64,000 nucleotides of DNA, taken from the IMG/VR virus record IMGVR_UViG_3300025466_000001; one strand, given 5' to 3'. Position numbers and translations under genes: made by a program. The DNA is from an uncultured virus (IMG/VR IMGVR_UViG_3300025466_000001) (Duplodnaviria > Heunggongvirae > Uroviricota > Caudoviricetes). Shown in pieces: positions 15,683 to 56,333 of the stretch. Position 1 is the first letter of the stretch. Each line of letters begins with the position of its first letter. The notes under the pieces are model-generated. The model worked only from the letters and a program-made list of their open reading frames with translations, was not told where the DNA came from and made no database searches.

Positions 15683-18600
15683 ATGGACTTAGATAGACTG
15701 TCGCTTGACGACCTAAAGGCGCTTCGCAGCAACAACCTAGACGGTATGTCTCTTGAAGGGTTGAACTATCTAAAAACACAGCAAAAGGCTTCTGTTCCTG
15801 CAAGAGAAGAACCCAAAGAAGACACAGGCGCTACAGGCGCCTTTAAGTCTAGCCTAGAAAGTATCAAGGGCGAACTCGGAGCATTGGCTGGCAAAACTGG
15901 TTTAATGGACCAAGCCGAAGCTGAGAAATACTATAAAGAACAAAAAGAAAAAGCTGCTGCATTAGCGCCTACAGAAAAAAGCTGGACTGAATCTCCTTTC
16001 CAAAAGCTTAAAGAAACAGCTGCTGGGTCTGTTCCTTATATGGCTGCCCCTCTTATTGCCGGTGGTGCTGCTGCATTGGGTGGTGCTCCTGCTTTGGTTG
16101 GCGCAGGTGCTGCTGGTATTGCTTCAGGTTTACAGTTTACTGGTTCTAACCTTGGTCGTCAGATGGAGGAAGGCAAGTCTTTAGAAGAAGCTAGTTTAGG
16201 CAAAGCTGCTGCAGCCGCAATTCCACAAGCTGCATTAGACGTAGTAGGGTTTAAATACATTCCGGGTGTACAAAAGATTTTTTCTTCTATAGGCAGAGAG
16301 CTTACAGAACAAGAAGCTTTAAACATTATTAAGGCTGGTACGCTAAAGACAGCAGGACAGTATATTGCTGGCGGTGCAAAGATCGGTGGTATTGAAGGCG
16401 CTACAGAAGCAGGTCAACAGTTCTTCGAGCGTTTACAGGCTGGTTTAAATTTAAATGATGAACAAGCACGTAAAGAATACTTAGACAACTTTATTGGTGG
16501 CGCTGCATTAGGTGTAGTGGCTTCTCCATTTGGTGTTCATGGTACTCGTGCAGATGCACAAAAAGTTGTTCAAGAGGCGCAAGCAAAACGAGATGTAGAA
16601 GCTCAAAAAGTAGCGCAAGAACAAGAAGCACAACAAGAATTTCAAAAACAACAGGCTGAAACAGGACAGGTTACAGGTGAAGCTGTACCCGCCGCTGAAC
16701 AAGTATCTCCACTCCCTAATGCCCCAAGCACACTAACTGCAGCTGAGCGTTTACAGCAAGAAGAAGATGCGGCTAAACAACAGCAAGAGCAAACTGCTTC
16801 TGCTTTGCGTCAACATCAAGTACTAAAGAACGAAGTAGATACACTGCAAGAGCAAGTTGCTAAAGCCGCTGAGCAAGGCAACGTAGATGCTATCACCACA
16901 TTAAGCCCACGCTTGCAGCAAATGCAGGCTGCCTACAAGACAAGCCAAGAAGCCATTAAGAAGATTAGCCCAGTTGAGCAATCGCCTGACGTACAGATGG
17001 CTGAGCTTCGTGGCAAGCTAAAACAAAAGATTGGCCAGCTACAAAAAGCTGGTGGTGTTACAGGCGACTTTGAAAAGATTAACAAAGTAGCTACAGAGAT
17101 TAAAGGTATTCAGACAAAGATTGATGACTTGTCTAAAGCTGGCACGCAGTTTGAGTTGTTTGAACCAGCCAAGATGGAGGCAGAGGCCAATCAGGCTAAG
17201 CAGCAACAAGCCGCCCAACGTCAGCAAGAACAACAAGATTTGTTTGCACAACTACCTCAAAAAGAAGCCCCCGGCCCATTAGATAAATACCAAGAAGGTT
17301 TGCGTGAGCTAGAAGAAGCCCATGCAGCCGGTGCTGATGAGCGTGCAGTTAACGACATTGTTGAGAAGATTCGCCACGCACAGATTGAAAAAGGCTTAAA
17401 GAGCGCTGCCCCAGCCGAAGAAGCTAACGCTCGAGTAGAAAGAGTTAAGCGTGCTATTGCTGAAGAACAACGCAACTATGCTAATGCTACAACTGAAGAA
17501 GAAAAAGCTACAGCTATTGCTAGTATGGGCGCATTACAAAAGCGTTTGGCAGAAGCTCAAACAGATAAAGCTAAACCACAACCCGAACGTGAGCAAGCAA
17601 CTGCTAAGGCAGACCAAGCCACTGCCCATGATACTTTGCTAGATGCTGTTGATGATCTAAAAGCAGGTCGTTATTTAGCCGGTGCCGACCCAAGAACCGC
17701 ATCATCGTTACGTTCCGGTATTGAAGCTAAGGCTAGAGATGCTACGGCTGGCTATATTGAAGCAGCAACACGTGAAGTTAATGCAGTTCGTGCTGCCAAT
17801 AAACAATCAGAACTAAGCACAGACGAAGCGCTTAAACTTGCCTTTGATTTAAAAGATACGCTTGATAAAGTTGTTGCCAATAAAAATGTTGGTGTACTAA
17901 GGGTTGCCCCTAACCAAGAAGTTAGCTATCTAGAAAAACAAATTGATGGCATTAAAAACAAATATACACAAGGTGCTGCTAGAAACTTAACTAGAGTACA
18001 GCCTTTCTTTACATCACAAGAACGTGATGCAACGCAGATGCTCAAAGCAGAGAAAGCTAAGAAGAACCCTAACCTACAAAAGATTCGCCAGCTTGAAAAA
18101 GAAGTTGCGGCTGGTAAACGTGAAGATGAGCGTATTGCCGCTGAGAAAGAAAAAGCAGAACTTAAAGAACCTGAAGGCGTAAACCCAGACCAATATAGTT
18201 TGTTTGGCGAAAAACAATTAGAGCCTATCGCTGCTGTTCGTGCTACCCATAAGAACTTCATGCGTTTTGTGGATACTCAGGCAGCTAAGTTTAAAGAAGC
18301 TCAAGGTAAAGCGGAAGAAAAACTAGCGCAGATTAAAGAGAAAGCTGATGCAGCTTTTGAAAAGCAACGTGCTATTGAGGCACGTAGCCCAGTACTAGAC
18401 AAAGAGTTTATGAGTCAGGTGCAAGCGCAGCGTCAGTTTGTTTTCGATGTTATTAACGCTGACAAATTAGTTACAGAGCTTCGTGGTATGGCTGAACGTA
18501 TTTGGCAGGATAAAGCTCACCCAGAACGCTTAGCTCAAATTGACGCGCTACACGCAGAAGCTAACAAAATTGTAGAAGCTAATATCCAAACAGAGAAAGC

Positions 18601-21600
18601 TATCCTACAAAGCATGGAACGTAGACTCGCTAAGATGGAAGCCCCATCTAAAGCTGCCCTACAAAACAAAGCCTATGCCGATAAAGCTAGAGCTATCGTA
18701 GCGCAAATGGAAGGCGACCTAAAGAAATTAAGTGAGCGCCAAACTGCTGAGAAACGTAAAGCCGAGACATTAGCTGCTGAGCGTTTAGCCGCATTACCAA
18801 GTAAGCGCCTTAAGACTGTTGTTACTGAGCGTGCCAAGTTTGGCAGAGAAGCTCCGACTGTTGCTAGGGTTATTACTGAGAAGCCAGCTAAGACAGCCGC
18901 ACAAAAAGCGGAAGAAGGCAGAGCCAAAGCTCGTGAAGCTGCAGAAGAACAAGCATCCCTTAAACGTGCACAGAAAGAACGTGCTGGTACAAGTCTTACA
19001 CAAGATAAAGATATTAGAGACGTTGTTCAACGTCAAGCTATGCGTACAGCCGAAGTATTGGGCAATCGCCCAGCAAAACTGGCCCCTAAAGCTAAGCCAA
19101 GCGCAGCGGAAAAAGCTACCGCTAAAGCTAATGAAAAGACGGCTAAGCAGATTGCAGATGCAAGGCGTTCTGAAAAAGAATACGCTGGTGAGGCTAATGT
19201 AGGTTTTGAAGACTACATGGAAATATCCGAAGGTTTAAAACATGGCTTTAGTGCACGTGAAGAATCCGCTCATGGCGGTGAAGGTCTAAGCCACGCAGAA
19301 GTTCAGAAAGTTGTTGACGGTGTTAAGTTACCGGAAGGCTTGAAGCTTACTGTGATGGAGAAGTTGCCTGAGCCAATTAAAGCCTACATTCGTGAGCGTG
19401 GCTATAACCCTGATACTATTCGTGGTTTCGTTACTGCTAATGGCAAAGTTGTAGTTGTAGCCAATAACCACGCAGACCTTAAAGATGTTGAAAAGACCAT
19501 TGCCCACGAAGTTACAGGTCACTTAGGGGTTGAGGGTATTCTAGGCAAAGAAGGCATGGCTGCATTTACCGCTAAAGTAATTAAGCAAGAAGGCGGTGTA
19601 ATGGAGTTGGCACGCAAGTTAGGTGTTCAAGACGATGCCTATGGCGCTTACTTAGCTGCCTTACGTTCCGGCAAGACTAAAGAAGAAGCTCAAGCTGCAG
19701 CAGTATCAGAAATGATTGCGCACACAGCAGAAGCTCGCCCAACTAAAGAGTTTATTGGTAAGGCTAAAGAGTTTATTGAAGCCCTGATGGGTGCGTTGCG
19801 TGCAGGTTTACGCAAGATGGGTATTGATTTACGCATTAACACCAACGACGTTTACAAGCTATTGCGTGATGCTCGTGAAGACTTTAAGGTTTCTCCCGGC
19901 GCTAGCGTAGAGGCTAATGGTGAAGTTAAGTTCCGTAGCCAGCCTAAGTACAACAGTAAGTTTGCTGATTTGGGGGCTGACGTTTCTAAAGTTGTTGCTA
20001 AGAATCAAACCACTAAGGACAAGATTAAAGCAGCCGCTAGTGGCATGAAAGTACCTAGCGATATTATGAAGCCTACAGGTATATTGTCCGAGAAAAACCG
20101 CCTAGCTTTCCGTACACGTTACATTGACCGCTTTGCTCCTGTAGAGAAGGTAGCTAACAAATTAGCGGAGAAGTTTAAAGATTCGCTAGTTGGCACACAG
20201 TTAATGTACTACCTCCGTATGCACGACCAAAACCTTAACTGGACTGCTCAGATTGCTTCGGGTGGCCCTATTGATTTAGTGGAAAGAAAACGTGCTGATG
20301 GTAAGAAAGAAACCATCCTAGAATCCCAAGACGGCGCTAGTTTGTTAAAGGTTTCCCAAGCACTTAAGAAAGCTGACGTTGGTGATGCCGATGCTGCCAA
20401 TCAATTGTTTACATTCTACTTAGCGGCTAAACGTGCTCAGCGTGTTGGTTTGGATACATTGAACTTTGACAAATCAGTTACACAGCCAATGCTGGATAGA
20501 GTCGTAAACCGCATTAACTCTGACCCACAAACCAAAGCAGCTTTTGAAGAAGCCGCTAAAATCTACAACGATTACAACAAAGGTTTGGTTGACTTTGCCG
20601 TTAAGACAGGTCGCCTCTCTAAAGAAGTTGGCGCTAAGTTACTAGAAGCTAAAGACTATGTGCCGTTCTATCGTGTGCGCCCTGATGGTTCAGTGATGCT
20701 AGATATTGGCGGAGCTACAACAGTTAACATAGGTAATATTACAGATCAGCCTTACCTACATGAGTTAGTCGGCGGCGATACCGCTATCCTTGATGTCTTT
20801 ACTAGCTCTTTGCAAAACACACGCATGCTAACAGATATGGCATTGCGTAACCTAGCTACTCGTAACGTAGCGTTTAGTTTGAGAGAACTAGGCTTGTTAC
20901 AGAAGAAGAAAGGCAGAGATGGAAAAGAATTTGGCTCCGGTATCTATGAAGGCAAAGGTCCTGCTAACGATTCTACTATTCGCTTTATGTTGGATGGCAA
21001 AGATCACTATGCAGTGGTGGATACTGACAGTATTGGTATTCCCGCAGACTTACTTGTAAAAGGTATGGATGGCGTACAGGTTTCAGTTCCTAATCTAGTT
21101 AAGATGGCTGGTATCCCAGCACGTATGCTCCGCAGCTTTATTACAAGGAACCCAGCTTACGCTGTCCGTCAAATCTCTCGTGACTCTTTATCAAACGCAT
21201 TTACTACTGGCGCTGATTCGATTCCTATTATTGATAACATGAAGCAGTTAGGCTCTATGCTACGTGGGGTTAATGAGGGTGAGTTGTTATTGAAGAAGCG
21301 TGGTATTTTGGGCGGTCAAGTTATTGGTGGCGCTTCAGATTCTATGCAAAAAGCTATGCTGCAAGTTATAGACGGCAAACCCGGCTGGAGCAAAGCGATG
21401 GCTTATCTAGACCACGTAGCTATGATGGGCGATGCTTCTTCTCGTGTAACTTCTTACAACAGCTTTATCAAACAAGGTTTGTCCGATATGGAAGCTACCT
21501 TGGCCTCTTTGGAAGCTATGAACTTTAGTAAGCGTGGTACATCCCCAAGCTTCTACTTGCTCAATCAAATGGTGCCGTTCTTGAACGCACAGATTCAAGG

Positions 21601-22594
21601 TCTTGATGTTCTTTATAAAGCTTTTGCTGGCAAGATGCCGTTTAGCGACAAGCTAAAGATTAAAGAGAAGTTGCTCAAACGTGGCGCTATGATGGCTGGT
21701 ATGACAATGGCTTACACAGCGTTGATGTATGACGACGACTTGTACAAGAACGCTACCCCACAAGAAAGAATTGGTAATTGGTTTGTTAAGTTACCCGGTA
21801 TGGATGAGGCTGTTCGTGTCCCTATTCCATTTGAAATCGGCGGTATCTTTAAGATGCTTCCTGAGATGGTTTACTCTACCGCTTTCAAAGATAAGAAACT
21901 TGGTGACGCTGCTAAAGAAATTGCCGAGTATTCAGTTAATCAGTTTGTTCCATCTGTAATGCCAACGGTTGCTAAACCATTTATAGAATTGCCTGCTAAT
22001 TACTCATTCTTTACTGGCAAGCCAATAGAAGGCGCACGTTTACAGAAACTAGAACCCGGCATGCGTGCAAATGCTAACACCCCAGAAGTACTAAAAGCAC
22101 TTGGTGAAGCTACTAACATTTCCCCAGTTAAGATGGAGTATTTGCTACGTACATTCACAGGTTCGCTACCGCTGGCTATGTTGACTTTGGCTAATCCTGT
22201 AACTGCTGCTGGTGAAGCTCCTGAGGGTCGTGGTTTATTAAGTAGCACAACTCCTGTTGTTGGCGCTTTCTTCCAGCCTAAAGATGCTACCGGTCTAATT
22301 GAGAAAGCTTATGAGCAAATGGGTGACGTTCAAAAAGCTCAAGCTACTTATAGAGATTTGGTTGATAACGACAGAGAAAAAGAAGCCGATGCGTTCTTGG
22401 ATAAAGAAGCTGACTTGATTGGTATGGCACGATTTGCTGGACAGTTCAACAAAAAGATGGGAGAGTTGGCTAAGCAAGAACGTGAGATACGTTCCATGAC
22501 TGGCATTAGCGGAGCTGAGAAGCGCCAATTACTAGATGAAATACGTCAAACCCGTATCGAGATGTCTAAAGAGTTCCTTAGCGCACGCGAGTAA
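15683..22594 (+). CDS. Large polyvalent/ejection protein (2303 aa) with zincin-like HExxGH and LPD38-like C-terminus
   Basis: IAHEVTGH; PFLNAQIQG, RVPIPFEIG, ANYSFFTGKPIE motifs; long coiled coils. Confidence 0.7.
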   Translation: MDLDRLSLDDLKALRSNNLDGMSLEGLNYLKTQQKASVPAREEPKEDTGATGAFKSSLESIKGELGALAGKTGLMDQAEAEKYYKEQKEKAAALAPTEKSWTESPFQKLKETAAGSVPYMAAPLIAGGAAALGGAPALVGAGAAGIASGLQFTGSNLGRQMEEGKSLEEASLGKAAAAAIPQAALDVVGFKYIPGVQKIFSSIGRELTEQEALNIIKAGTLKTAGQYIAGGAKIGGIEGATEAGQQFFERLQAGLNLNDEQARKEYLDNFIGGAALGVVASPFGVHGTRADAQKVVQEAQAKRDVEAQKVAQEQEAQQEFQKQQAETGQVTGEAVPAAEQVSPLPNAPSTLTAAERLQQEEDAAKQQQEQTASALRQHQVLKNEVDTLQEQVAKAAEQGNVDAITTLSPRLQQMQAAYKTSQEAIKKISPVEQSPDVQMAELRGKLKQKIGQLQKAGGVTGDFEKINKVATEIKGIQTKIDDLSKAGTQFELFEPAKMEAEANQAKQQQAAQRQQEQQDLFAQLPQKEAPGPLDKYQEGLRELEEAHAAGADERAVNDIVEKIRHAQIEKGLKSAAPAEEANARVERVKRAIAEEQRNYANATTEEEKATAIASMGALQKRLAEAQTDKAKPQPEREQATAKADQATAHDTLLDAVDDLKAGRYLAGADPRTASSLRSGIEAKARDATAGYIEAATREVNAVRAANKQSELSTDEALKLAFDLKDTLDKVVANKNVGVLRVAPNQEVSYLEKQIDGIKNKYTQGAARNLTRVQPFFTSQERDATQMLKAEKAKKNPNLQKIRQLEKEVAAGKREDERIAAEKEKAELKEPEGVNPDQYSLFGEKQLEPIAAVRATHKNFMRFVDTQAAKFKEAQGKAEEKLAQIKEKADAAFEKQRAIEARSPVLDKEFMSQVQAQRQFVFDVINADKLVTELRGMAERIWQDKAHPERLAQIDALHAEANKIVEANIQTEKAILQSMERRLAKMEAPSKAALQNKAYADKARAIVAQMEGDLKKLSERQTAEKRKAETLAAERLAALPSKRLKTVVTERAKFGREAPTVARVITEKPAKTAAQKAEEGRAKAREAAEEQASLKRAQKERAGTSLTQDKDIRDVVQRQAMRTAEVLGNRPAKLAPKAKPSAAEKATAKANEKTAKQIADARRSEKEYAGEANVGFEDYMEISEGLKHGFSAREESAHGGEGLSHAEVQKVVDGVKLPEGLKLTVMEKLPEPIKAYIRERGYNPDTIRGFVTANGKVVVVANNHADLKDVEKTIAHEVTGHLGVEGILGKEGMAAFTAKVIKQEGGVMELARKLGVQDDAYGAYLAALRSGKTKEEAQAAAVSEMIAHTAEARPTKEFIGKAKEFIEALMGALRAGLRKMGIDLRINTNDVYKLLRDAREDFKVSPGASVEANGEVKFRSQPKYNSKFADLGADVSKVVAKNQTTKDKIKAAASGMKVPSDIMKPTGILSEKNRLAFRTRYIDRFAPVEKVANKLAEKFKDSLVGTQLMYYLRMHDQNLNWTAQIASGGPIDLVERKRADGKKETILESQDGASLLKVSQALKKADVGDADAANQLFTFYLAAKRAQRVGLDTLNFDKSVTQPMLDRVVNRINSDPQTKAAFEEAAKIYNDYNKGLVDFAVKTGRLSKEVGAKLLEAKDYVPFYRVRPDGSVMLDIGGATTVNIGNITDQPYLHELVGGDTAILDVFTSSLQNTRMLTDMALRNLATRNVAFSLRELGLLQKKKGRDGKEFGSGIYEGKGPANDSTIRFMLDGKDHYAVVDTDSIGIPADLLVKGMDGVQVSVPNLVKMAGIPARMLRSFITRNPAYAVRQISRDSLSNAFTTGADSIPIIDNMKQLGSMLRGVNEGELLLKKRGILGGQVIGGASDSMQKAMLQVIDGKPGWSKAMAYLDHVAMMGDASSRVTSYNSFIKQGLSDMEATLASLEAMNFSKRGTSPSFYLLNQMVPFLNAQIQGLDVLYKAFAGKMPFSDKLKIKEKLLKRGAMMAGMTMAYTALMYDDDLYKNATPQERIGNWFVKLPGMDEAVRVPIPFEIGGIFKMLPEMVYSTAFKDKKLGDAAKEIAEYSVNQFVPSVMPTVAKPFIELPANYSFFTGKPIEGARLQKLEPGMRANANTPEVLKALGEATNISPVKMEYLLRTFTGSLPLAMLTLANPVTAAGEAPEGRGLLSSTTPVVGAFFQPKDATGLIEKAYEQMGDVQKAQATYRDLVDNDREKEADAFLDKEADLIGMARFAGQFNKKMGELAKQEREIRSMTGISGAEKRQLLDEIRQTRIEMSKEFLSARE

Positions 22595-31408: not shown

Positions 31409-33375
31409 TACTTAGCATCTCCGTATCGTTTAGCATAGCTTGATTCTGCGTCAAGTGGGATGCCTTTCATATACTGCGGTTCCATGACCATCTGTGCGTG
31501 TACCCATTTCTCTGCTTCTTCTACTTCTTCATCAGGTACTAGCACTACAACTTCGTCATGCACAGTCAATACACAAGGGTATCTCTCTTGTATCCGTAAC
31601 ATCCCATCAGTCATCACGCAACGAGCAACGGCCTGAACAATGTTTTCTACCAGCTTACCGCCGTATAGTTTTTTATTGTCAGACCCGTAAGACCATTGTG
31701 TTCTGCCTTTCTCGTCTTCTGTACCCTTTAAATCAGGGTAACGCAAAGCCAAACCACTAGGCAATATTATACGCTCTTTTTCAAAAGTTAGACATTTATA
31801 TTCGTAGGTTTTTCCCTTACTTAAACTATGCCCTATCAACGAACTACATAAGTCCCAAAAGGTTACTACTGGGTGCGACTTCTCACGATAGATTTCAATA
31901 ATCTTTTTAGCGGCTAGGCTATGAACTAGAAGCTCTTTGTCTGTGCAAGTGTGTGGTATCTTGTGGAGTAATTCCATGTTGCGTTCCCAACCTAAGAAGT
32001 CAGCTACATCTTGCTCAGTTACACCAAGTTGTTTAGCAAATGCTTTGTCATACATTGTGGGCGGTGCGCCTAGGAATCCAGTAAGAAGTTGCGCAGAGAA
32101 GCTAGCCCAACCCATGCCATAGCCACAACCTAACAACGCTGATTTTGCTGACTGCCTGAGAGTCGGATGTGTTTCTTTAGAGAGGTCGGGTATGCCAAAC
32201 ATCTGCGCCCCAAACGCTGAGTAGGCATCTTGACCCGATGCGAATATATCAAGGAGTGACGTGTAATCAGCGAGATAGGCAAGGACTCTCGGCTCAATTT
32301 GCGAGAGATCGCATACGACGAGCGAGTACCCGTTCGGCGCTTTGATAGATTTACGTAGGAATGACCCCCTCTTGAGGTTTTGTAGATTAAGCCCCGAGCC
32401 CTTGCTCGCCGACCAACGGCCTGTGTGCGCTCCGTAGTAGTTGAGTGGGACAGGAAGTTTACCTCGTTCCGATATATCTGCAAATCTCTGCGCCCTTGTG
32501 CGTTCAAGCGTTGATTTAACTTTGAGCCTTGCTTCGCAAATAAGGGCAACATCGTCGTTACTACTGTTAAGCAACGCTTGGAAGAGGGCATCGTTCTTAG
32601 CGAACGCATAAGCTTCTTTGCCAGTCGTCTTGCTGATCTTACGTGGTGGATTAACTCCAAGTCCTTTAAGTACTTCAGCAAATTTATCGTTACTAGCAAG
32701 CGCCGTTTCATCAACGTCAACTTTTTTAAGAAGCGCTTCCCTCTTTGTCCTCTCATCTTCGATTGCTTCATTAAGCATCTCCTTATCTAACTCAAGTGTG
32801 GGGAACACAAACATCTTGAGCGTCATGTCAATTAAATCTAGTTCACTCTGTGGGAACCCACCTTCTACTTCACCCAGCAAGTTTCTAAATATCTGAGCGC
32901 ACAGTTCTACATCGTGCTCACAGTAGATGGCTAATTCTTTCTCCATCTCATAAGTAATTTCAGACAAGCCGTTAGTGCTATGCACCGCTTGTCCTTTAGG
33001 TGGTAGCCCGTAGTGTTCTGCTAATGTAGCTAGGCTGTTGCCTACTTCTACACCACGAAGGGCACGACCCATACTTAGAGAATCCAGTATATAAGCAGGC
33101 CTAGCGCCGTAGACCCAAGCAAGAATAGAAACATCAAACTGAGCATTATGAGCAAGTACATTTACATTCTCCCAATCAATAGAACTAACCCACGCTGGAA
33201 TATCATCGTGAGTTACCCAAGTTGTTGTATCTTCATTGAGCCACTTATACCCTACACCGAAAGCCTTGAACATCGGACTACGAACATATTCTTCCGTAGT
33301 CATCTTGCTTAGCGTGTAGTCTTTACTGTCCCATCTAGTTTCAAAGTCAACTACCAGCGTTTTTCTTCCGAACAT
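31408..33375 (-). CDS. polA: Family A DNA polymerase with 3'-5' exonuclease
   Basis: DFET, HNAQFD, YCEHD; TGRWS, DLSQIEPR, AKSALLGCGYG, TVHDE. Confidence 0.95.
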   Translation of the reverse strand: MFGRKTLVVDFETRWDSKDYTLSKMTTEEYVRSPMFKAFGVGYKWLNEDTTTWVTHDDIPAWVSSIDWENVNVLAHNAQFDVSILAWVYGARPAYILDSLSMGRALRGVEVGNSLATLAEHYGLPPKGQAVHSTNGLSEITYEMEKELAIYCEHDVELCAQIFRNLLGEVEGGFPQSELDLIDMTLKMFVFPTLELDKEMLNEAIEDERTKREALLKKVDVDETALASNDKFAEVLKGLGVNPPRKISKTTGKEAYAFAKNDALFQALLNSSNDDVALICEARLKVKSTLERTRAQRFADISERGKLPVPLNYYGAHTGRWSASKGSGLNLQNLKRGSFLRKSIKAPNGYSLVVCDLSQIEPRVLAYLADYTSLLDIFASGQDAYSAFGAQMFGIPDLSKETHPTLRQSAKSALLGCGYGMGWASFSAQLLTGFLGAPPTMYDKAFAKQLGVTEQDVADFLGWERNMELLHKIPHTCTDKELLVHSLAAKKIIEIYREKSHPVVTFWDLCSSLIGHSLSKGKTYEYKCLTFEKERIILPSGLALRYPDLKGTEDEKGRTQWSYGSDNKKLYGGKLVENIVQAVARCVMTDGMLRIQERYPCVLTVHDEVVVLVPDEEVEEAEKWVHAQMVMEPQYMKGIPLDAESSYAKRYGDAK

Positions 33376-33544
33376 TTTTTACTTTCTTTTGTTTAGCGTC
33401 AGCTTTGCACTGCTCTATGTATTGCTTGAGAATTGCAAGCACACCTTCTTGAACTAAAAAACCCAAACCTTCTTTATCAAAATGAACCATAGCATCAGCA
33501 GAACCATCTTCGTTTTCTCGTACTACTTCTACTCTGATTTCCAT
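33347..33544 (-). CDS. Hypothetical protein
   Basis: ENEDGSAD motif; coupled ORF. Confidence 0.65.
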   Translation of the reverse strand: MEIRVEVVRENEDGSADAMVHFDKEGLGFLVQEGVLAILKQYIEQCKADAKQKKVKNVRKKNAGS

Positions 33545-33780
33545 TAGTTAATTGTCCTGTCGTTAAGCTGGTCAAGAACTCTATGCCCAATCTCAGCCGC
33601 AGTTTCAGTAAGAAGAATAGGAACTTCCATCTCATCAATGTTAAGACCGCATACCTTGACGCTACTTGTTTCACTATTAGCCACTACCAAAACAATGGAT
33701 ACATTCGGGTCATCAGCGCCCTGTTCAATCAGATCATAGATTGCTTCTAGAGCGCTATCGGGTGTTGTGTGTTCAGTCAT
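33544..33780 (-). CDS. Hypothetical protein
   Basis: Coupled ORF. Confidence 0.65.
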   Translation of the reverse strand: MTEHTTPDSALEAIYDLIEQGADDPNVSIVLVVANSETSSVKVCGLNIDEMEVPILLTETAAEIGHRVLDQLNDRTIN

Positions 33781-34100
33781 TCATCTCTTTCGTTGTGTTG
33801 TTCAATCCATTGAAGTGTGTCTAGTGAATCTTCTACGGACTGAATGTTTTCTTCGTTAACCACCATCACATACCCTCTAGCATCCTCAATCTTCTTGAGT
33901 TCAGCTTCTTGTAGTGCGGTTGTTTTATTTTTACCAGCCTTACATTCTATCGCAATGAAGCGCCCTTTGTAACAAGCTATGATGTCGGGAATACCCGAAC
34001 GACCAAACCCACCCATCACAGGATAGAAATAATAAGCGCCAAACTTTTTAAGGATTTTTGTTACGGCTTCTTTTACCTTTTTCTCGGGTGTTTGTGCCAT
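33777..34100 (-). CDS. VRR-NUC / Holliday-junction resolvase-like nuclease
   Basis: PEKKVK, GIPDII..YKGRFIAIECKAG..TALQ. Confidence 0.85.
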   Translation of the reverse strand: MAQTPEKKVKEAVTKILKKFGAYYFYPVMGGFGRSGIPDIIACYKGRFIAIECKAGKNKTTALQEAELKKIEDARGYVMVVNEENIQSVEDSLDTLQWIEQHNERDE

Positions 34101-34494
34101 TTGTTAACTCCTTTGCTTTTTCCAAGTGTAGTGCTACGTGTTTACCATGATCTGCATACGTTTCTTCAAAGACTTTGTTAAGTATGTTTGCCGCTATTAC
34201 ATCTTTGGTATGTTGCATTGATTCTGCAAGTCGTTTTGCAATACCACCAAAGTCAGGCAAGTTGCTAAAGAACTCATCAAACTCTTCCTCTTTCAAGTAA
34301 CGCATACCATCAGGGGTTTCTACTAAAATGCCATGCTCTTTAAGCCAGCGTAGCTTTCGTCTTTCTTCTACCGCTTCTTGCAGTTCCATTCTTACTCTTG
34401 CATCTCGTTGTTGCATTACCGCCAACTCAGCTCTCAGCTTCTCAATCTCAGCCCCCTTCGGGTCAATCGCTTTCAGTATCTCTTTCGAGTCCAT
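34048..34494 (-). CDS. Coiled-coil protein containing a major-capsid-like segment
   Basis: AAGGAG RBS; residues 87-109 align with capsid residues 108-130. Confidence 0.7.
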   Translation of the reverse strand: MDSKEILKAIDPKGAEIEKLRAELAVMQQRDARVRMELQEAVEERRKLRWLKEHGILVETPDGMRYLKEEEFDEFFSNLPDFGGIAKRLAESMQHTKDVIAANILNKVFEETYADHGKHVALHLEKAKELTNGTNTREKGKRSRNKNP

Positions 34495-34669
34495 CTACTT
34501 CTCCTTGTTGTTCTAAAGTTAGGTCTGCCATTGGCAGTTCGATTGTTGTTATCCTAAAGCCACAGTCGTCTATGCAAACCCGTCGTCTACGCACCCAGTC
34601 AGGATGTTGTGTCGCCGTCCGAGTTTGCGTAGTCTTTAACTTGGCTCCGCACTTTGGGCAGTTTCTCAT
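34463..34669 (-). CDS. NrdR/Ogr-like zinc-ribbon protein (start MRNCPKCG)
   Basis: CPKCG...RRRRVC...CGFRITTIE. Confidence 0.75.
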   Translation of the reverse strand: MRNCPKCGAKLKTTQTRTATQHPDWVRRRRVCIDDCGFRITTIELPMADLTLEQQGEVDGLERDTESD

Positions 34670-34785
34670 GTGTTTCTCCAGTATGTATCGTTTGGATTGG
34701 CAAGCATGGAGCACAGTAACTCATCTACATTTTTAAACCATTGAATAACTTTTAAGCCGTTACTTTGTTTAATTGTGAAGCTCAT
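34666..34785 (-). CDS. Small hypothetical protein (39 aa; not in the ORF track)
   Basis: MSFTIKQSNGLKVIQWF...; GGGAG RBS; ATGA overlap. Confidence 0.55.
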   Translation of the reverse strand: MSFTIKQSNGLKVIQWFKNVDELLCSMLANPNDTYWRNT

Positions 34786-34977
34786 TTAGAACTCCCATGT
34801 CTTAGTTATCGTTACTTGTTGGTCATCTTTTGTAGCTTCGACTTCTATATTGAGGTTGGGTTGCTTCTTGTCTTTCTTCCCGAATATCAAATCAAAGTTC
34901 CTATCAAACTCTTCCATGCTTACACCTAGTGGGCGAGGTGCATCACCTTTGCCGCCATCATGCTTTGTCATTAACAT
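34786..34977 (-). CDS. Small conserved phage protein
   Basis: GGKGDAPRP...FDRNFDLIFGK. Confidence 0.65.
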   Translation of the reverse strand: MLMTKHDGGKGDAPRPLGVSMEEFDRNFDLIFGKKDKKQPNLNIEVEATKDDQQVTITKTWEF

Positions 34978-35135
34978 CTCCCATCCATATCAAAGTCATC
35001 TTCTTTCTCCTCAATGTGTTTCTGTAATAGCCGAGCAAGCCTTTCAAACTTAGTAACATCAGGCATAACTTGATGCCTACCAAAGCCAGCTTCAAAAGCA
35101 AGGGCTACAACTACTGCTCTATCTAGTTCTTCCAT
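34971..35135 (-). CDS. Hypothetical protein
   Basis: Likely start MEELDR; acidic tail. Confidence 0.5.
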   Translation of the reverse strand: MEELDRAVVVALAFEAGFGRHQVMPDVTKFERLARLLQKHIEEKEDDFDMDGRC

Positions 35136-35460
35136 ATCCAATCCTATCTCCGTTGTTGTCGAAGTAATTTCTAGCACCTTCTCGGTTCTCTGTTACATAA
35201 CCTACTCGGTTCCCCTCGTTATCATACACTCCGTTTGCTCTTGGATTCCAGTAGTTATACTGCGAGTTCTTGGGGTTGTATGGCGAGTTATTGTAGTTGG
35301 CTGACGAGTTCTGATAGTTATACTCCGAGTTCTTCCAGTTGTATGGGCTATCTCTCCAGCTATCTTGCGCTTTGGCTTGATGGCTAAACATCATAAACTC
35401 AATAACAAACCCTAGCAGAACGGCAAACACCGCTAGCCTAAACAGTTCATCTCTATTCAT
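35119..35460 (-). CDS. Exported protein with 7-aa NSxYNxx repeats
   Basis: Signal-peptide-like N-terminus ending AKA; five tandem heptapeptides. Confidence 0.7.
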   Translation of the reverse strand: MNRDELFRLAVFAVLLGFVIEFMMFSHQAKAQDSWRDSPYNWKNSEYNYQNSSANYNNSPYNPKNSQYNYWNPRANGVYDNEGNRVGYVTENREGARNYFDNNGDRIGYGRTR

Positions 35461-51851: not shown

Positions 51852-52064
51852 GTGATTGACCTACTAACGGCTGATTTCATAGCCGCCATGCGTGACAAGT
51901 TGCGCACAGATATGAATAACTACACTGACGATTTGGCAAATGGTCAGTGCACAAGTTTTGAGCAGTACAAAGAGCTCTGCGGCGTGATTCGAGGCCTAGC
52001 GTTTGCAGAGCGCCACTTACTTGACCTCGCTGAGTATTTACAGAAAGAAGATGACGATGAGTGA
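51852..52064 (+). CDS. Small head-region protein
   Basis: YKELCGVIRGL motif; position. Confidence 0.7.
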   Translation: MIDLLTADFIAAMRDKLRTDMNNYTDDLANGQCTSFEQYKELCGVIRGLAFAERHLLDLAEYLQKEDDDE

Positions 52065-52506
52065 TACCATCGCTTTACCCTCACAGGAGTTAATCCTCCC
52101 ACCGGGCGTAGTACCAACGAAAGCCAATGCACCGACTGAAGAAGAGTTGGAAAACATGGACGCTATCGAAAAAGCAACGCAAATGCCGCAGCCATCAGGA
52201 CATAAGATTCTTTGTGCCTTGGTAGATGCAACCGATAAGTTCGACAGTGGGATTCTTAAAGCGGATGAAACAAAAATGGTTGAGGAATTAACTTCCCCAG
52301 TCTTGTTTGTTATTCGCCTAGGTGTCTCAGCGTATAAAGATAAAGATCGTTTTCCTGACGGGCCTTGGTGCCAAGAAGGTGATTTTATTTTGACCCGCCC
52401 GTATACCGGCACTCGAATCAAGATTCACGGCAAGGAATTTCGCATTATCAACGACGACCAAGTCGACGGTACTGTGATGGACCCCCGTGGCATTTCCCGC
52501 GTTTAA
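52057..52506 (+). CDS. groES: GroES-like co-chaperonin
   Basis: PSGHKIL, GD..L..Y.GT..KIHGKEFRIINDD. Confidence 0.8.
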   Translation: MSDTIALPSQELILPPGVVPTKANAPTEEELENMDAIEKATQMPQPSGHKILCALVDATDKFDSGILKADETKMVEELTSPVLFVIRLGVSAYKDKDRFPDGPWCQEGDFILTRPYTGTRIKIHGKEFRIINDDQVDGTVMDPRGISRV

Positions 52507-54609: not shown

Positions 54610-55521
54610 ATGGCTATTTCACGTTCACAACTCCTAAAAGAGTTACTCCCGGGTCTAAACGCTTTGTTTGGTTTAGAGTACAAGCGCTATGGCGAAGAGC
54701 ATAAAGAGCTCTACGAAACAGAAACTTCTGAGCGTTCATTCGAAGAAGAAACAAAACTGTCTGGTTTCTCGGCTGCTCCAGTCAAGAACGAAGGCGGTGC
54801 AATTTCTTACGATAATGCACAAGAAGCTTTCACAGCTCGCTACTCACACGAAACCATCGCTTTAGGTTTCTCAATCACTGAAGAAGCGATTGAAGATAAC
54901 TTGTATGACTCTTTGTCTGCTCGTTACACTAAAGCATTGGCTCGCGCTATGGCTTACACCAAGCAAGTTAAAGCAGCTTCTGTATTGAATAACGGTTTCT
55001 CTGGTAGCTACGTAGGTGGCGACGGTCAACCATTGTTCTCTGCTTCACACCCATTGGTTAACGGCGGTACAAACAGCAACGTTCCTCCTACATCAGTTGA
55101 CTTGAATGAGACTTCTTTGGAAGCCGCTACAATTCAAATCGCTGCTTGGACAGACGAGCGTGGTCTCTTGATCGCTGCTAAACCACGCAAGTTGGTAATC
55201 CCACCAGCATTGATGTTCGTTGCAACTCGTTTGCTTGAGACTAACCTCCGTGTTGGTACCAACAACAACGATATCAACGCCATCAAAAACAATGGTACCG
55301 TTCCAGAAGGTTACACAGTTAACCACTTCTTGACCGACACAAACGCTTGGTTCTTGTTGACCGACGTTCCAAACGGCTTGAAGCACTTTGAGCGTACACC
55401 ATTGCAAAACAGCATGGACGGCGACTTCGACACAGGTAACGTACGTTACAAGTCTCGTGAGCGTTACAGCTTCGGTTGGTCTGATCCACTCGGCGCTTGG
55501 GGCTCTGCAGGTTCATTCTAA
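54610..55521 (+). CDS. Major capsid protein (HK97 fold, Mu gpT-like)
   Basis: MAISRSQLLKELLPGL, DGQPLFSASHP, RYSFGWSD; strong codon bias; followed by terminator. Confidence 0.9.
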   Translation: MAISRSQLLKELLPGLNALFGLEYKRYGEEHKELYETETSERSFEEETKLSGFSAAPVKNEGGAISYDNAQEAFTARYSHETIALGFSITEEAIEDNLYDSLSARYTKALARAMAYTKQVKAASVLNNGFSGSYVGGDGQPLFSASHPLVNGGTNSNVPPTSVDLNETSLEAATIQIAAWTDERGLLIAAKPRKLVIPPALMFVATRLLETNLRVGTNNNDINAIKNNGTVPEGYTVNHFLTDTNAWFLLTDVPNGLKHFERTPLQNSMDGDFDTGNVRYKSRERYSFGWSDPLGAWGSAGSF

Positions 55522-55537: not shown

Positions 55538-55569
55538 AAAAAACCCAGCTCACAAGGCTGGGTTTTTTT
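55538..55569. terminator. Bidirectional intrinsic terminator
   Basis: A6-CCCAGC-loop-GCTGGG-T7. Confidence 0.85.
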
Positions 55570-55900
55570 CATTGTAGTGGTGTATTCGGTGGCAGTTAGC
55601 GCATAGAACAATGCACTTTTTTATTTCTTCATAGGCTTTTTTAAACTGTCCATTACTAACTAAATTGCTTACTACGTTTTCTTTTTGGGTAGGGTCTTCG
55701 TGGTGAAAATCTAACGCCGCTGGGTGAGAAAAATCGCATTTTGCACATTTAAGTGTGCATTTAAATGTATCCCATTCTTTCTTTAATTCTTTCCTTCTAA
55801 TGTTTATTTGCTCTCGACGTTCGGCATATTTGCCTAAATACTGCTTACGGCTGTACTCCGCATGTTTGGCTTTTTTTACGTTCGCGTCTTTGTACGGCAT
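55550..55900 (-). CDS. HNH endonuclease, antisense to the late operon (start MPYKD)
   Basis: CAKC...ALDFHH...CIVLCANCHRIHH. Confidence 0.85.
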   Translation of the reverse strand: MPYKDANVKKAKHAEYSRKQYLGKYAERREQINIRRKELKKEWDTFKCTLKCAKCDFSHPAALDFHHEDPTQKENVVSNLVSNGQFKKAYEEIKKCIVLCANCHRIHHYNEKNPAL

Positions 55901-56333
55901 CTGGGTGGACCTTATATTTCCAATAGATTGCGTTGCGAAAGCCCCATGGTTGTCCGGGCTGATAAATTTTGAAACCCGCACTGATTAACGAGTTCGATGA
56001 CGCAGGATTTTTTGTTGTATCGGTGATTAACCAATTCCATCCTAACTTCCTAGCTTGTTTGATTCTTGCAGATATTAATCTCTTTTGTAAGCCGTGTCCA
56101 GTAAAGCCATCCATTACACCTGCTCTACATAAGTAACCTGTATCTGTCCATTTGATCGAGCGGACCATACCCGCAAAAGCGACAGGCTTTCCATCCTCCG
56201 CATACGCAATCCACCAATGACCCCTGTCCGGTTGGTACGGCGTATCCGCCGGAAGTATTTTCTTTTGTAGAAAAAGTAGTGTGGTTTGAACTGACGGGAC
56301 TCTGATGTCCACTTTTTTTATTGTAAATTTCAT
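55845..56333 (-). CDS. GNAT acetyltransferase, antisense to the late operon
   Basis: YLCRAGV...GHGLQKRLI, N.AS.NSL...GF. Confidence 0.8.
   Translation of the reverse strand: MKFTIKKVDIRVPSVQTTLLFLQKKILPADTPYQPDRGHWWIAYAEDGKPVAFAGMVRSIKWTDTGYLCRAGVMDGFTGHGLQKRLISARIKQARKLGWNWLITDTTKNPASSNSLISAGFKIYQPGQPWGFRNAIYWKYKVHPDAVQRRERKKSQTCGVQP

What the first reader, a model, noticed from the sequence alone, without database searches (positions are those of the whole stretch)
34168..34236. Early-arm protein carries a copy of a major-capsid helix (possible capsid mimic/decoy)
Seen: residues 87-109 of ORF 34048-34494 (KRLAESMQHTKDVIAANILNKVF) align without gaps to capsid residues 108-130 (KALARAMAYTKQVKAASVLNNGF, nt 54931-54999). 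12 of 23 residues are identical, and NLPD/NLYD lies just upstream. The rest of the protein is an unrelated coiled coil. By position, this segment is probably the HK97 spine helix (inference). Established: some defence systems are triggered by capsid protein (Lit by the T4 Gol peptide; CapRel). Inference: a capsid epitope expressed before the capsid could titrate a capsid sensor, interfere with a competitor's assembly, or bind scaffold/chaperonin.
Basis: partly seen in the sequence, partly recalled or inferred. Interest (0 to 1): 0.82.

Follow-up and report, generated by a model that had tools for sequence, protein, structure and literature searches.

The report
Small phage protein copying capsid pieces
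A small accessory protein of a freshwater phage ends in a genuine copy of a conserved helix of the phage's own capsid protein, and its relatives in other phages carry copies of other capsid pieces, which points to an undescribed way of interfering with or steering capsid assembly or capsid recognition.

Summary
In detail: ORF 34048-34494 (minus strand, 148 aa) residues 87-109 match capsid residues 108-130 at 12 of 23 positions. Alone this is marginal: it is the top pair in an all-vs-all of 78 window ORFs, but only 29.6 bits. Family evidence makes it solid. A profile of 13 diverse capsids hits the ORF at E 1e-6, while the best of 3000 shuffled decoys scores 0.012. hhalign gives 93% probability. 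The ORF-family profile finds only the capsid helix in 9 of 10 related phage genomes.

Unexpectedly, other family members share the N-terminal coiled-coil module but end in copies of other capsid segments: the N-arm, the E-loop and a GTxxNDxN loop. The helix copy keeps all six invariant or near-invariant capsid residues and evolves under purifying selection (dN/dS about 0.12-0.17).

The gene is accessory: 10 of 10 tested relatives lack it. It evolves fast, is sometimes tandemly duplicated, and overlaps a Holliday-junction-type nuclease gene.

Best reading: a capsid-derived interface mimic on a coiled-coil carrier that binds unassembled capsid protein or a capsid-binding partner. No function was shown.

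The parts
34048..34494 (-). The ORF (148 aa): an accessory small protein with an N-terminal coiled-coil/hairpin module and a capsid-derived tail
   Evidence: There are 14 homologues at E<=0.01, and whole-gene dN/dS is 0.29-0.36. No Pfam, PHROG-function or PADLOC family matches.
34264..34494 (-). N-module (residues 1-77): long helix 12-54, beta-hairpin 57-66 (GILVETPDGMRYL), acidic helix 69-77 (EEEFDEFF). This is the conserved core of the whole family.
   Evidence: AF2 model with pLDDT 77-92 over residues 11-80. Family alignments A1 and A3.
34129..34248 (-). Capsid-derived region (residues 83-122), homologous to capsid residues about 103-142. The finding's 23-mer (34168-34236) is its core.
   Evidence: hhalign aligns ORF 83-115 with capsid 103-135. 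The capsid HMM aligns ORF 85-122 with HMM 106-142 at E 9.9e-7. Consensus comparison.
34048..34100 (-). C-terminal 17 residues (NGTNTREKGKRSRNKNP), encoded in a 53-nt overlap with the start of the downstream nuclease gene
   Evidence: The two reading frames are printed. The same overlap is seen in L003 and L008; in other loci the distance between the two genes varies.
33777..34100 (-). Downstream gene: Hjc/VRR-NUC-type Holliday-junction-resolvase-like nuclease (107 aa), syntenic with the family
   Evidence: Pfam Hjc 5.4e-5 and phrog_93 2.5e-17. It follows the family ORF in 10 of 16 loci.
34463..34714 (-). Upstream gene: NrdR-type zinc-ribbon protein (83 aa). Its end overlaps the ORF start by 32 nt.
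   Evidence: Pfam Zn_ribbon_NrdR 1.2e-7. The same order is seen in L009.
54610..55521 (+). Major capsid protein (303 aa, Phage_capsid_4 / Mu gpT-like HK97 type), the source or model of the copied segment
   Evidence: Pfam 2.5e-15 and phrog_371 2.4e-24. It is 73% identical to the capsids of Planktothrix phage Pag-Yong1 and Synechococcus phage MinM2.
54916..55035 (+). Capsid residues 103-142, probably the spine helix plus what follows it. L110, T117, A123 and N127 are invariant; A111 and K118 are near-invariant.
   Evidence: Alignment A9 of 38 capsids. Positional mapping.

Best explanation
What it is (well supported): a fast-evolving accessory phage gene. Its product has a conserved N-terminal carrier (a long coiled-coil helix, a beta-hairpin and an acidic helix). 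The carrier is joined to a C-terminal module that is truly homologous to a piece of the phage's own HK97-type major capsid protein (MCP). In this window the piece is the helix at capsid residues about 103-135, probably the spine helix. In sister proteins it is the N-arm, the E-loop or a GTxxNDxN loop.

How it most likely works (inferred): the copied pieces are the elements that make subunit-to-subunit and N-arm-to-P-domain contacts in HK97-type procapsids. The tail would therefore occupy, on unassembled or procapsid-state MCP or on a protein that docks on those elements (scaffold, portal), the site normally filled by the corresponding MCP element. The coiled coil would make this multivalent. 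The effect would be to modulate or poison capsid assembly. Because the gene is dispensable in close relatives, this is more likely an accessory function (competition with co-infecting phages or satellites, or timing) than a core assembly step.

The homology and the conservation of capsid-invariant residues are shown. Binding, target and outcome are inferred.
For: Homology is not chance:
- Capsid HMM against the ORF gives E 9.9e-7; the best of 3000 decoys scores 0.012.
- hhalign probability is 93%.
- The reciprocal ORF-family profile hits only the capsid gene, at the tail columns, in 4 of 5 named relatives and 5 of 5 metagenomic relatives. In the window it hits only the ORF and the capsid.

The tails are modular capsid pieces. 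Five sequences match the N-arm at E 9e-8 to 7e-5, two match the E-loop at 1e-3 to 3e-3, and fourteen match the spine helix. The capsid profile alone picked out an N-arm-type ORF in record G009 at E 3.8e-9. Shuffle tests for the short E-loop tails and the loop-214-227 tail gave 0-1 of 1000 shuffles reaching the observed score.

The two proteins share the same constraint:
- The window ORF keeps all 6 invariant or near-invariant capsid residues of the segment: L110, A111, T117, K118, A123 and N127.
- The consensus of 18 spine-type tails equals the consensus of 38 capsids at 15 of 33 positions, including YAxxLAxSMxQTKE.
- Per-position conservation correlates between the two (Spearman 0.56, p 7e-4).
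- dN/dS of the 23-codon segment is about 0.12 and 0.17, against 0.29 and 0.36 for the whole gene.
- Third codon positions are random, so gene conversion is not maintaining the likeness.

The copied elements are contact elements. In the JBD30 Mu-gpT-type capsid the N-arm hook reaches above the neighbour's spine helix. The extended loop, peripheral domain and N-terminus also contact the portal (passages). [quoted passage not shown]

Accessory character:
- The N-module is absent from 10 of 10 tested relatives.
- All 5 relatives checked for the nuclease (those) have it. In the three of those loci where my script located the nuclease, it is preceded by unrelated small ORFs.
- ORFs are 57-68% identical where capsids are 95-98% identical.
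- Tandem paralogues with different tails occur in L009, L022-L024 and L026.
Against: - No binding or phenotype was shown.
- The spine helix is mainly an intramolecular element of the P-domain. It is unclear what a free copy would bind.
- The phage's own capsid carries the same segment, so an assembly poison would also hit the phage that encodes it.
- The capsid could not be modelled (pLDDT 35). I could not check whether the conserved face of the helix is exposed, buried or at an interface.
- In the ORF model the tail is one long helix of moderate confidence (pLDDT about 60-69). It may simply pack on the N-terminal helix.
- The gene sits among replication and nuclease genes, not head genes.
Confidence: 0.4

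Rival explanations
1. Decoy or antagonist for a host (or satellite) factor that recognises newly made capsid protein. The tail would present a capsid epitope on a multivalent carrier before or alongside capsid synthesis and titrate a capsid sensor or a capsid-hijacking protein.
For: The family looks like a counter-defence gene. It is small, lies in the replication or early block, and evolves fast while the capsid is nearly static. It is patchy, being absent from 10 of 10 tested relatives. It is sometimes tandemly duplicated, and the tails are swapped on nearly identical N-modules (P0010 against P0011). N-arm, E-loop and spine-helix faces are exposed only in unassembled subunits, which is where a sensor would bind (inference from passages). 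Direct sensing of a phage capsid protein by CapRel is established (search listing and abstract of PMC9712102).
Against: No sensor is known for this phage group, and the host is unknown. A faithful copy of a trigger would be expected to activate a sensor rather than block it, unless the N-module adds an inhibitory activity. No PADLOC or other family hit gives a lead. Expression timing is unknown.
Confidence: 0.2
2. Exapted remnant. An old fusion or capture of capsid coding sequence left pieces that now serve only as ordinary helices or linkers of a protein whose function has nothing to do with capsids (for example a partner of the neighbouring nuclease).
For: Some long tails look like collinear, heavily deleted capsid copies. 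By eye, L023b shows the spine-helix start, then GGT, then KLVIP..RLLE, then GxxND. Only L025o gave a weak HMM hit (E 0.039, capsid 168-215). The tail is predicted as one plain long helix. The gene context is replication and recombination.
Against: An unrelated role would not keep exactly the capsid's invariant residues, including polar T117, K118 and N127. Yet these are kept across subfamilies whose N-modules are only 20-30% identical. The segment is under stronger purifying selection than the rest of the gene. Several different capsid pieces are kept in different members.
Confidence: 0.2
3. Adaptor that tethers the co-translated Holliday-junction-type nuclease to the procapsid or portal. Branched DNA would then be resolved at the packaging site. 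The capsid-like tail would be the docking element.
For: The ORF end overlaps the nuclease start by 53 nt in the window. The nuclease follows the family ORF in 10 of 16 loci across divergent subfamilies. In JBD30 the extended loop, peripheral domain and N-terminus of MCP contact the portal (passage).
Against: All 5 relatives without the ORF that were checked keep the nuclease. In the three loci where my script found it, unrelated small ORFs lie upstream. L022-L025 have family members with no nuclease downstream. No interaction was tested.
Confidence: 0.1
4. Chance resemblance between two amphipathic helices.
For: Within the window alone the pair is only 2-3 bits above the next best random pairs. 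The ORF-family profile also gives a meaningless 16.6-bit hit to calcineurin B-like protein over the same region in the PDB (E 0.06).
Against: Decoy-calibrated HMM search, hhalign, reciprocal hits in 9 of 10 genomes, and better matches to distant capsids than to the phage's own: P0005 against a Caulobacter phage capsid and P0001 against MW202545. Independent tails match other capsid segments.
Confidence: 0.02

Closest known systems
SaPI1 CpmB (satellite protein that copies the C-terminal capsid-binding motif of the helper phage 80alpha scaffolding protein)
   Same: A small protein with an N-terminal helical dimerisation domain and a C-terminal short copy of another assembly protein's interaction motif. 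It acts by competing for a site at the N-arm/P-domain region of the capsid protein (abstract and passages of PMC5644958).
   Different: CpmB copies the scaffold, not the capsid, and it is encoded by a satellite that pirates the phage. Here the copy is of the MCP itself, the gene lies in the phage's own replication block, and the family carries several alternative MCP pieces. No sequence relation was found.
Tab (prophage-encoded tail assembly blocker) and other phage-encoded inhibitors of a competitor's virion assembly
   Same: A phage accessory protein that acts on virion assembly rather than on DNA or entry (abstract of PMC10884400).
   Different: Tab targets tail assembly through the tape measure protein and is not a copy of its target. 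It is expressed from a prophage and has a cognate anti-Tab. Nothing comparable was shown here.
Capsid-derived triggers of bacterial immunity (T4 Gol peptide/Lit; MCP sensed by CapRel)
   Same: A short part, or the whole, of a major capsid protein is the recognised entity.
   Different: Those are the capsid proteins themselves, sensed by host proteins. No phage-encoded capsid-piece decoy is described in what I searched.
Capsid-derived dominant-negative restriction factors of eukaryotes (mouse Fv1, sheep enJS56A1) - recalled, not checked here
   Same: A truncated or altered capsid-gene derivative, expressed apart from the virus's own capsid gene, that acts through capsid-capsid contacts.
   Different: Those are host-domesticated retroviral gag genes with whole capsid domains. 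Here there are short pieces (about 17-45 aa) on an unrelated carrier, encoded by the virus itself.
HK97 gp5 delta domain / scaffold-capsid fusion proteins
   Same: A coiled-coil region joined N-terminally to capsid sequence. The N-arm-type members (coiled coil, then capsid residues 3-47) have that order.
   Different: A profile search of 1.84 billion proteins found no member longer than 166 aa and no fusion to a whole capsid. The window's capsid has no such domain. The gene is 20 kb from the head module, on the other strand.

Membership tests
HK97-fold major capsid protein (Pfam Phage_capsid_4 / Mu gpT-like) | Full P- and A-domain fold of about 280-310 residues matching the family profile end to end | tested here: not met
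   The capsid HMM covers only positions 106-142 of 302 in the ORF. Pfam gives no capsid hit for the ORF. The ORF model is helices plus one hairpin.
HK97-fold major capsid protein (Pfam Phage_capsid_4 / Mu gpT-like) | Local homology to a conserved capsid segment with the family's invariant residues | tested here: met
   L110, A111, T117, K118, A123 and N127 are all matched.
Phage scaffolding protein | Elongated helical or coiled-coil protein | tested here: met
   The AF2 model has helices 12-54 and 85-132. The only Pfam matches are generic coiled-coil families.
Phage scaffolding protein | Encoded in the head module next to the capsid or protease genes | tested here: not met
   The ORF is at 34 kb on the minus strand among replication genes. 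The head module is at 47.8-55.5 kb on the plus strand.
Phage scaffolding protein | Present in all phages that share the capsid type (core gene) | tested here: not met
   The N-module was found in 0 of 10 tested relatives that have this capsid family.
CpmB-like assembly-motif mimic | Oligomerising N-terminal domain plus a C-terminal copy of an assembly protein's contact element | tested here: inconclusive
   The C-terminal copy is shown. Oligomerisation is only suggested by the long predicted helix.
CpmB-like assembly-motif mimic | Competes for a defined site on the capsid protein | not testable with these tools
   This needs binding or structural experiments.
Anti-defence decoy of a capsid sensor | Binds or neutralises a host protein that senses the capsid protein | not testable with these tools
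   The host and any sensor are unknown. A PADLOC scan of 36 members gave only coiled-coil noise.
Anti-defence decoy of a capsid sensor | Accessory, fast-evolving, patchily distributed small gene outside the structural module | tested here: met

The most novel reading that the evidence does not exclude
The family is a modular 'capsid-epitope display' system. A constant coiled-coil carrier is combined, by tail swapping between tandem paralogues, with whichever exposed element of the unassembled capsid protein (N-arm, E-loop or spine helix) is currently targeted by a host immune sensor or by a capsid-hijacking satellite. The copy acts as a multivalent antagonist. This would be the first phage counter-defence that works by copying pieces of the phage's own structural protein. 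The tail type would then report which capsid surface is under attack in a given host population.
Probability: 0.2. Interest if true: 0.88.

Novelty: new variant of a known kind. Interest (0 to 1): 0.72.

Why it matters
Mimicry of assembly proteins is known from satellites that copy a helper's scaffold motif, and capsid proteins are known triggers of bacterial immunity. Three literature searches found no description of a phage gene family that carries alternative short copies of the phage's own capsid contact elements on a common carrier.

If the tails bind capsid protein or its partners, the family offers natural, ready-made probes for the N-arm/E-loop/spine-helix contact network. That network controls HK97-type procapsid assembly in a very abundant group of aquatic phages (HTVC023P / Pag-Yong1 relatives). 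If they act on host sensors or satellites, the family would be a new class of counter-defence.

Either way the question can be tested directly with a few co-expression and binding experiments. The family also shows that short intra-genome protein similarities can flag real biology.

Tried and rejected
- Complex prediction of the capsid (alignment A9) with the ORF (alignment A1) gave no verdict: score 0.01 against a mark of 0.32, and the controls were not run. It says nothing for or against binding.
- AF2 on the capsid with a 34-row alignment of 79-95% identical sequences failed (pLDDT 35). No 3D mapping of the copied segments was possible, and both fold jobs were then spent.
- Foldseek of the ORF model against BFVD gave no match at E<=0.001.
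- The ESM Atlas gave no usable feature hit, and its structure rows had TM<=0.41. One of these was a viral S49 protease/scaffold-like protein, too weak to use.
- Pfam, PHROGs and PADLOC gave only coiled-coil noise or families of unknown function.
- The PDB sequence search with the ORF family gave only noise.
It was repeated with sub-alignments: A4 found nothing, A5 found 6 loci and A6 found 15. A7 was not searched.
- An own-capsid against other-capsid co-variation test was abandoned. The capsid segments are almost invariant among the phages that carry the ORF.
- The look-up of sequencing runs listed no RNA holder. All 24 rows are freshwater DNA metagenomes, and read laying was not used.
- The search of earlier findings returned nothing for this genome.
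- NLPD/NLYD and NGTNT/GGTNS were considered as extensions of the homology and rejected.

Full report
**1. The observation**

The ORF lies on the minus strand (34048-34494, 148 aa). The capsid gene is 54610-55521 on the plus strand (303 aa). It matches Pfam Phage_capsid_4 at 2.5e-15, Mu-like gpT at 5.5e-10 and PHROG 371 'major head protein' at 2.4e-24. Residues 87-109 of the ORF and 108-130 of the capsid align without gaps at 12 of 23 identities, at exactly the stated coordinates.

BLASTP gives 29.6 bits, E 2e-5 for the one comparison. This pair is the best non-self hit. It scores only E 0.001 per query, and the next pairs are at 27.3, 26.2 and 25.0 bits. Alone, the match is suggestive and not decisive. 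Nucleotide identity is 36 of 69, with third positions at 6 of 23, so this is not a recent duplication.

**2. Family evidence turns it into a solid result**

The ORF has 14 homologues at E<=0.01 among 5.8 billion proteins. In the ten that share its tail type the segment is conserved (LAxAMQxTKxxxAAxILNKxF).

I collected 13 capsids spanning 36-95% identity to the window's capsid, from named phages and metagenomes. Four tests followed.
- Profile against profile, hhalign aligns ORF 83-115 with capsid 103-135 at 93% probability, E 3.3e-7. That is stronger than the pairwise match.
- An HMM of these capsids was searched against 3138 sequences: 60 family entries, 3000 shuffled decoys and 78 window ORFs. 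It hits the window ORF at E 9.9e-7. The best decoy scores 0.012 and the best other window protein 0.072.
- Reciprocally, the ORF-family profile was searched in six frames over whole genomes. It finds only the capsid gene, at the tail columns, in 4 of 5 named relatives (MinM2, HTVC023P, DSL-LC04, CRP-901; none in Caulobacter phage GB2A). The same is true in 5 of 5 near-complete metagenomic relatives.
- In the window the profile finds only the ORF (E 9e-43) and the capsid (E 3.5e-4).

A tblastn of the ORF against 50,697 phage records returned a single hit, the same capsid segment of a distant capsid (MW202545; 35 bits, E 0.7). Several ORF homologues match distant capsids better than the window pair matches. 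For example, P0005 scores 80 against a Caulobacter phage capsid, with a shuffle null of 35.9 +/- 4.7 and 0 of 1000 shuffles reaching it. Chance is excluded.

**3. The unexpected part: other tails copy other capsid segments**

In the close family, P0011, P0013 and P0014 share the N-terminal 75 residues but end in ...GF.D.P.KAEGSAV.Y. This matches capsid residues 44-67 (1, 0 and 0 of 1000 shuffles). P0012 ends in ...RIGTLNNDVNPLK, matching capsid 214-227 (0 of 1000).

A profile search of 1.84 billion representative proteins found 30 members at E<=1e-3. All are 51-166 aa, and none is a full capsid or a fusion. More members were read from IMG/VR loci.

Against the capsid HMM, 21 distinct family sequences beat every one of the 3000 decoys:
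- 5 on capsid positions 3-47 (N-arm), at E 9e-8 to 7e-5;
- 2 on positions 48-80 (E-loop), at 1e-3 to 3e-3;
- 14 on positions 100-142 (the window's type).

The capsid profile by itself picked out an N-arm-type member in record G009 at E 3.8e-9. P0010 and P0011 have nearly identical N-modules but different tail types, so tails are exchanged as modules. Tandem paralogues with different tails occur in L009, L022-L024 and L026. P0142 looks like a mosaic, with a spine-helix start followed by an N-arm-like LLAGLNSIFDEEYSKY. HMMER placed that part on capsid positions 7-30, though weakly (E 0.075).

**4. Shared constraint**

In a 38-capsid alignment built from permitted sources (38-95% identity), L110, T117, A123 and N127 are invariant within the segment, and A111 and K118 are near-invariant. 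The window ORF matches all six.

The N-modules of the family are only about 20-30% identical between subfamilies. Across 18 spine-type tails from these subfamilies, the tail consensus equals the capsid consensus at 15 of 33 positions, including YAxxLAxSMxQTKE. Per-position conservation correlates between the two (Spearman 0.56, p 7e-4).

Pairwise dN/dS for the 23-codon segment is about 0.12 (window against L003) and 0.17 (against L008). The whole gene gives 0.29 and 0.36. These samples are small. In two very close pairs the tails, including their variable ends, gave noisy values of 0.66 and 1.1. The segment is not a decaying fragment. Synonymous sites are random, so gene conversion from the capsid gene is not what keeps it similar.

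**5. Anatomy and context**

The AF2 model of the ORF (pLDDT 70) has four elements:
- a long helix at 12-54;
- a hairpin at 57-66;
- a short acidic helix at 69-77;
- one long helix at 85-132 that contains the copied segment (pLDDT about 60-69).

No known family, fold or defence model matches.

The gene is packed between an NrdR-type zinc-ribbon gene (32-nt overlap) and an Hjc/VRR-NUC-type nuclease gene (53-nt overlap), upstream of the DNA polymerase. The last 17 residues (NGTNTREKGKRSRNKNP) are the other-frame reading of the nuclease's conserved start MAQTPEKKVKEA. This probably explains the 'GN(D/T)xGKES'-like endings across the family, and it removes the NGTNT/GGTNS part of the BLAST alignment from the homology. 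The nuclease follows the family ORF in 10 of 16 loci.

The phage belongs with Planktothrix phage Pag-Yong1, Synechococcus phage MinM2 and the HTVC023P-type pelagiphages (capsid 64-73% identical). All six complete or near-complete records that carry a family member have this capsid type (window). The family is nevertheless accessory. None of 10 tested relatives has the N-module. All 5 relatives checked for the nuclease have it. In the three of those loci where my script located the nuclease, it is preceded by unrelated small ORFs. Where capsids are 95-98% identical, the ORFs are 57-68% identical.

**6. Is the segment the spine helix?**

My capsid model failed (pLDDT 35), so this is not shown. 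Four things support it:
- The capsid profile is collinear over its first ~150 positions with the solved Mu-gpT-type capsids of JBD30 and Mu, though weakly.
- In JBD30 the N-arm is residues 6-25 and Lys66 lies in the extended loop (passages).
- The helix that follows the E-loop in the HK97 fold is the spine helix (passage of PMC5644958).
- The poor model has its longest post-E-loop helix at 104-128.

I rate the assignment as likely.

**7. Mechanism**

The copied pieces are the contact elements of HK97-type shells. In JBD30 the N-arm hook reaches above the neighbour's spine helix, N-arm hooks pair at twofold axes, and the extended loop, peripheral domain and N-terminus contact the portal. [quoted passage not shown] The satellite protein CpmB copies that scaffold motif and competes for the site.

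The most economical reading is interface mimicry. A tail occupies, on unassembled MCP or on an MCP-binding partner, the place of the corresponding MCP element, and the coiled coil gives multivalency. The accessory, fast-evolving, paralogue-forming character argues for a conflict or modulatory role rather than a core assembly role. I put this reading at 0.4.

The rivals are:
- an exapted remnant, which is disfavoured by retention of the capsid's own invariant polar residues (0.2);
- a nuclease-to-procapsid adaptor, which is suggested by the conserved overlap but weakened by relatives that keep the nuclease without the ORF (0.1);
- chance (0.02).

**8. Novelty**

Three full-text searches found no description of a phage gene family carrying copies of its own capsid's segments. 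Papers on the phage group were seen only as listings and abstracts, and their supplements were not read. The closest known kinds are CpmB-type motif mimicry, phage-encoded assembly blockers such as Tab (abstract), capsid-derived immune triggers, and, recalled from memory, capsid-derived dominant-negative factors of eukaryotes. I file this as a new variant of a known kind (mimicry of an assembly element). It would rank higher if the epitope-display or counter-defence reading proves true.

**9. Limits**

No experiment, no usable capsid structure, no expression data and no host are available. The family counts come from clustered databases and from loci I chose because they carried a member. The 10 relatives tested for absence were chosen for near-completeness and are not a random sample.

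Noticed in passing
window 52003-52506 (+): The head module encodes a GroES-like co-chaperonin (phrog_3188, E 1.1e-8), between the portal gene and the putative protease/scaffold genes. The capsid of this phage may therefore need chaperonin-assisted folding.
   Followed up: no
window 34048-34100 (-), and loci L003, L008, L027-L030, L035, L039, L041: The family ORF's 3' end overlaps the start of the Hjc-type nuclease gene. The conserved C-terminal motif of the family (NGTNTREKGK / GNDxGKES / NGSNS) is the other-frame reading of the nuclease's conserved MA(Q/A)TPE..VKK start. This suggests translational coupling.
   Followed up: partly
window capsid residues 16-24 and 126-134 (54655-54681, 54985-55011): The capsid has an internal look-alike: N-arm LNALFGLEY against the spine-helix end LNNGFSGSY (pattern LNxxFxxxY). 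This may be where N-arm-type and spine-type tails recombine, as in the apparent mosaic P0142. Seen by eye; not tested statistically.
   Followed up: no
L009 3229-3744; L022-L024 (two ORFs each); L026 1417-2024: Tandem paralogues of the family carry different tails. The 171-202 aa second copies have long tails that look like collinear, heavily deleted capsid copies. Only L025o gave a weak HMM hit, to capsid 168-215 at E 0.039.
   Followed up: partly
window 55550-55981 (-) and 55845-56333 (-): Two opposite-strand ORFs lie directly after the capsid gene. By eye, one has CxxC...HH / CANCHRIHH motifs typical of HNH endonucleases and the other looks acetyltransferase-like. This may be a mobile insertion next to the capsid gene. 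Seen; not scanned.
   Followed up: no
window 15683-22594 (+): A 2303-aa ORF lies in the structural arm. It was not examined.
   Followed up: no
window 35119-35460 (-) and L009 2136-2459: A conserved small protein has an N-terminal hydrophobic segment and repeated 'NSxYN(Y/P)xN' motifs followed by 'GNRVGY...G.RIGYGRT'. It lies a few genes upstream of the ORF in both the window and L009. It has no PHROG match.
   Followed up: no
window 33300-35200: The stretch is held almost word for word by 24 freshwater DNA metagenome runs from 24 coded studies of 2017. Seventeen of these are possible sources of the window.
   Followed up: no
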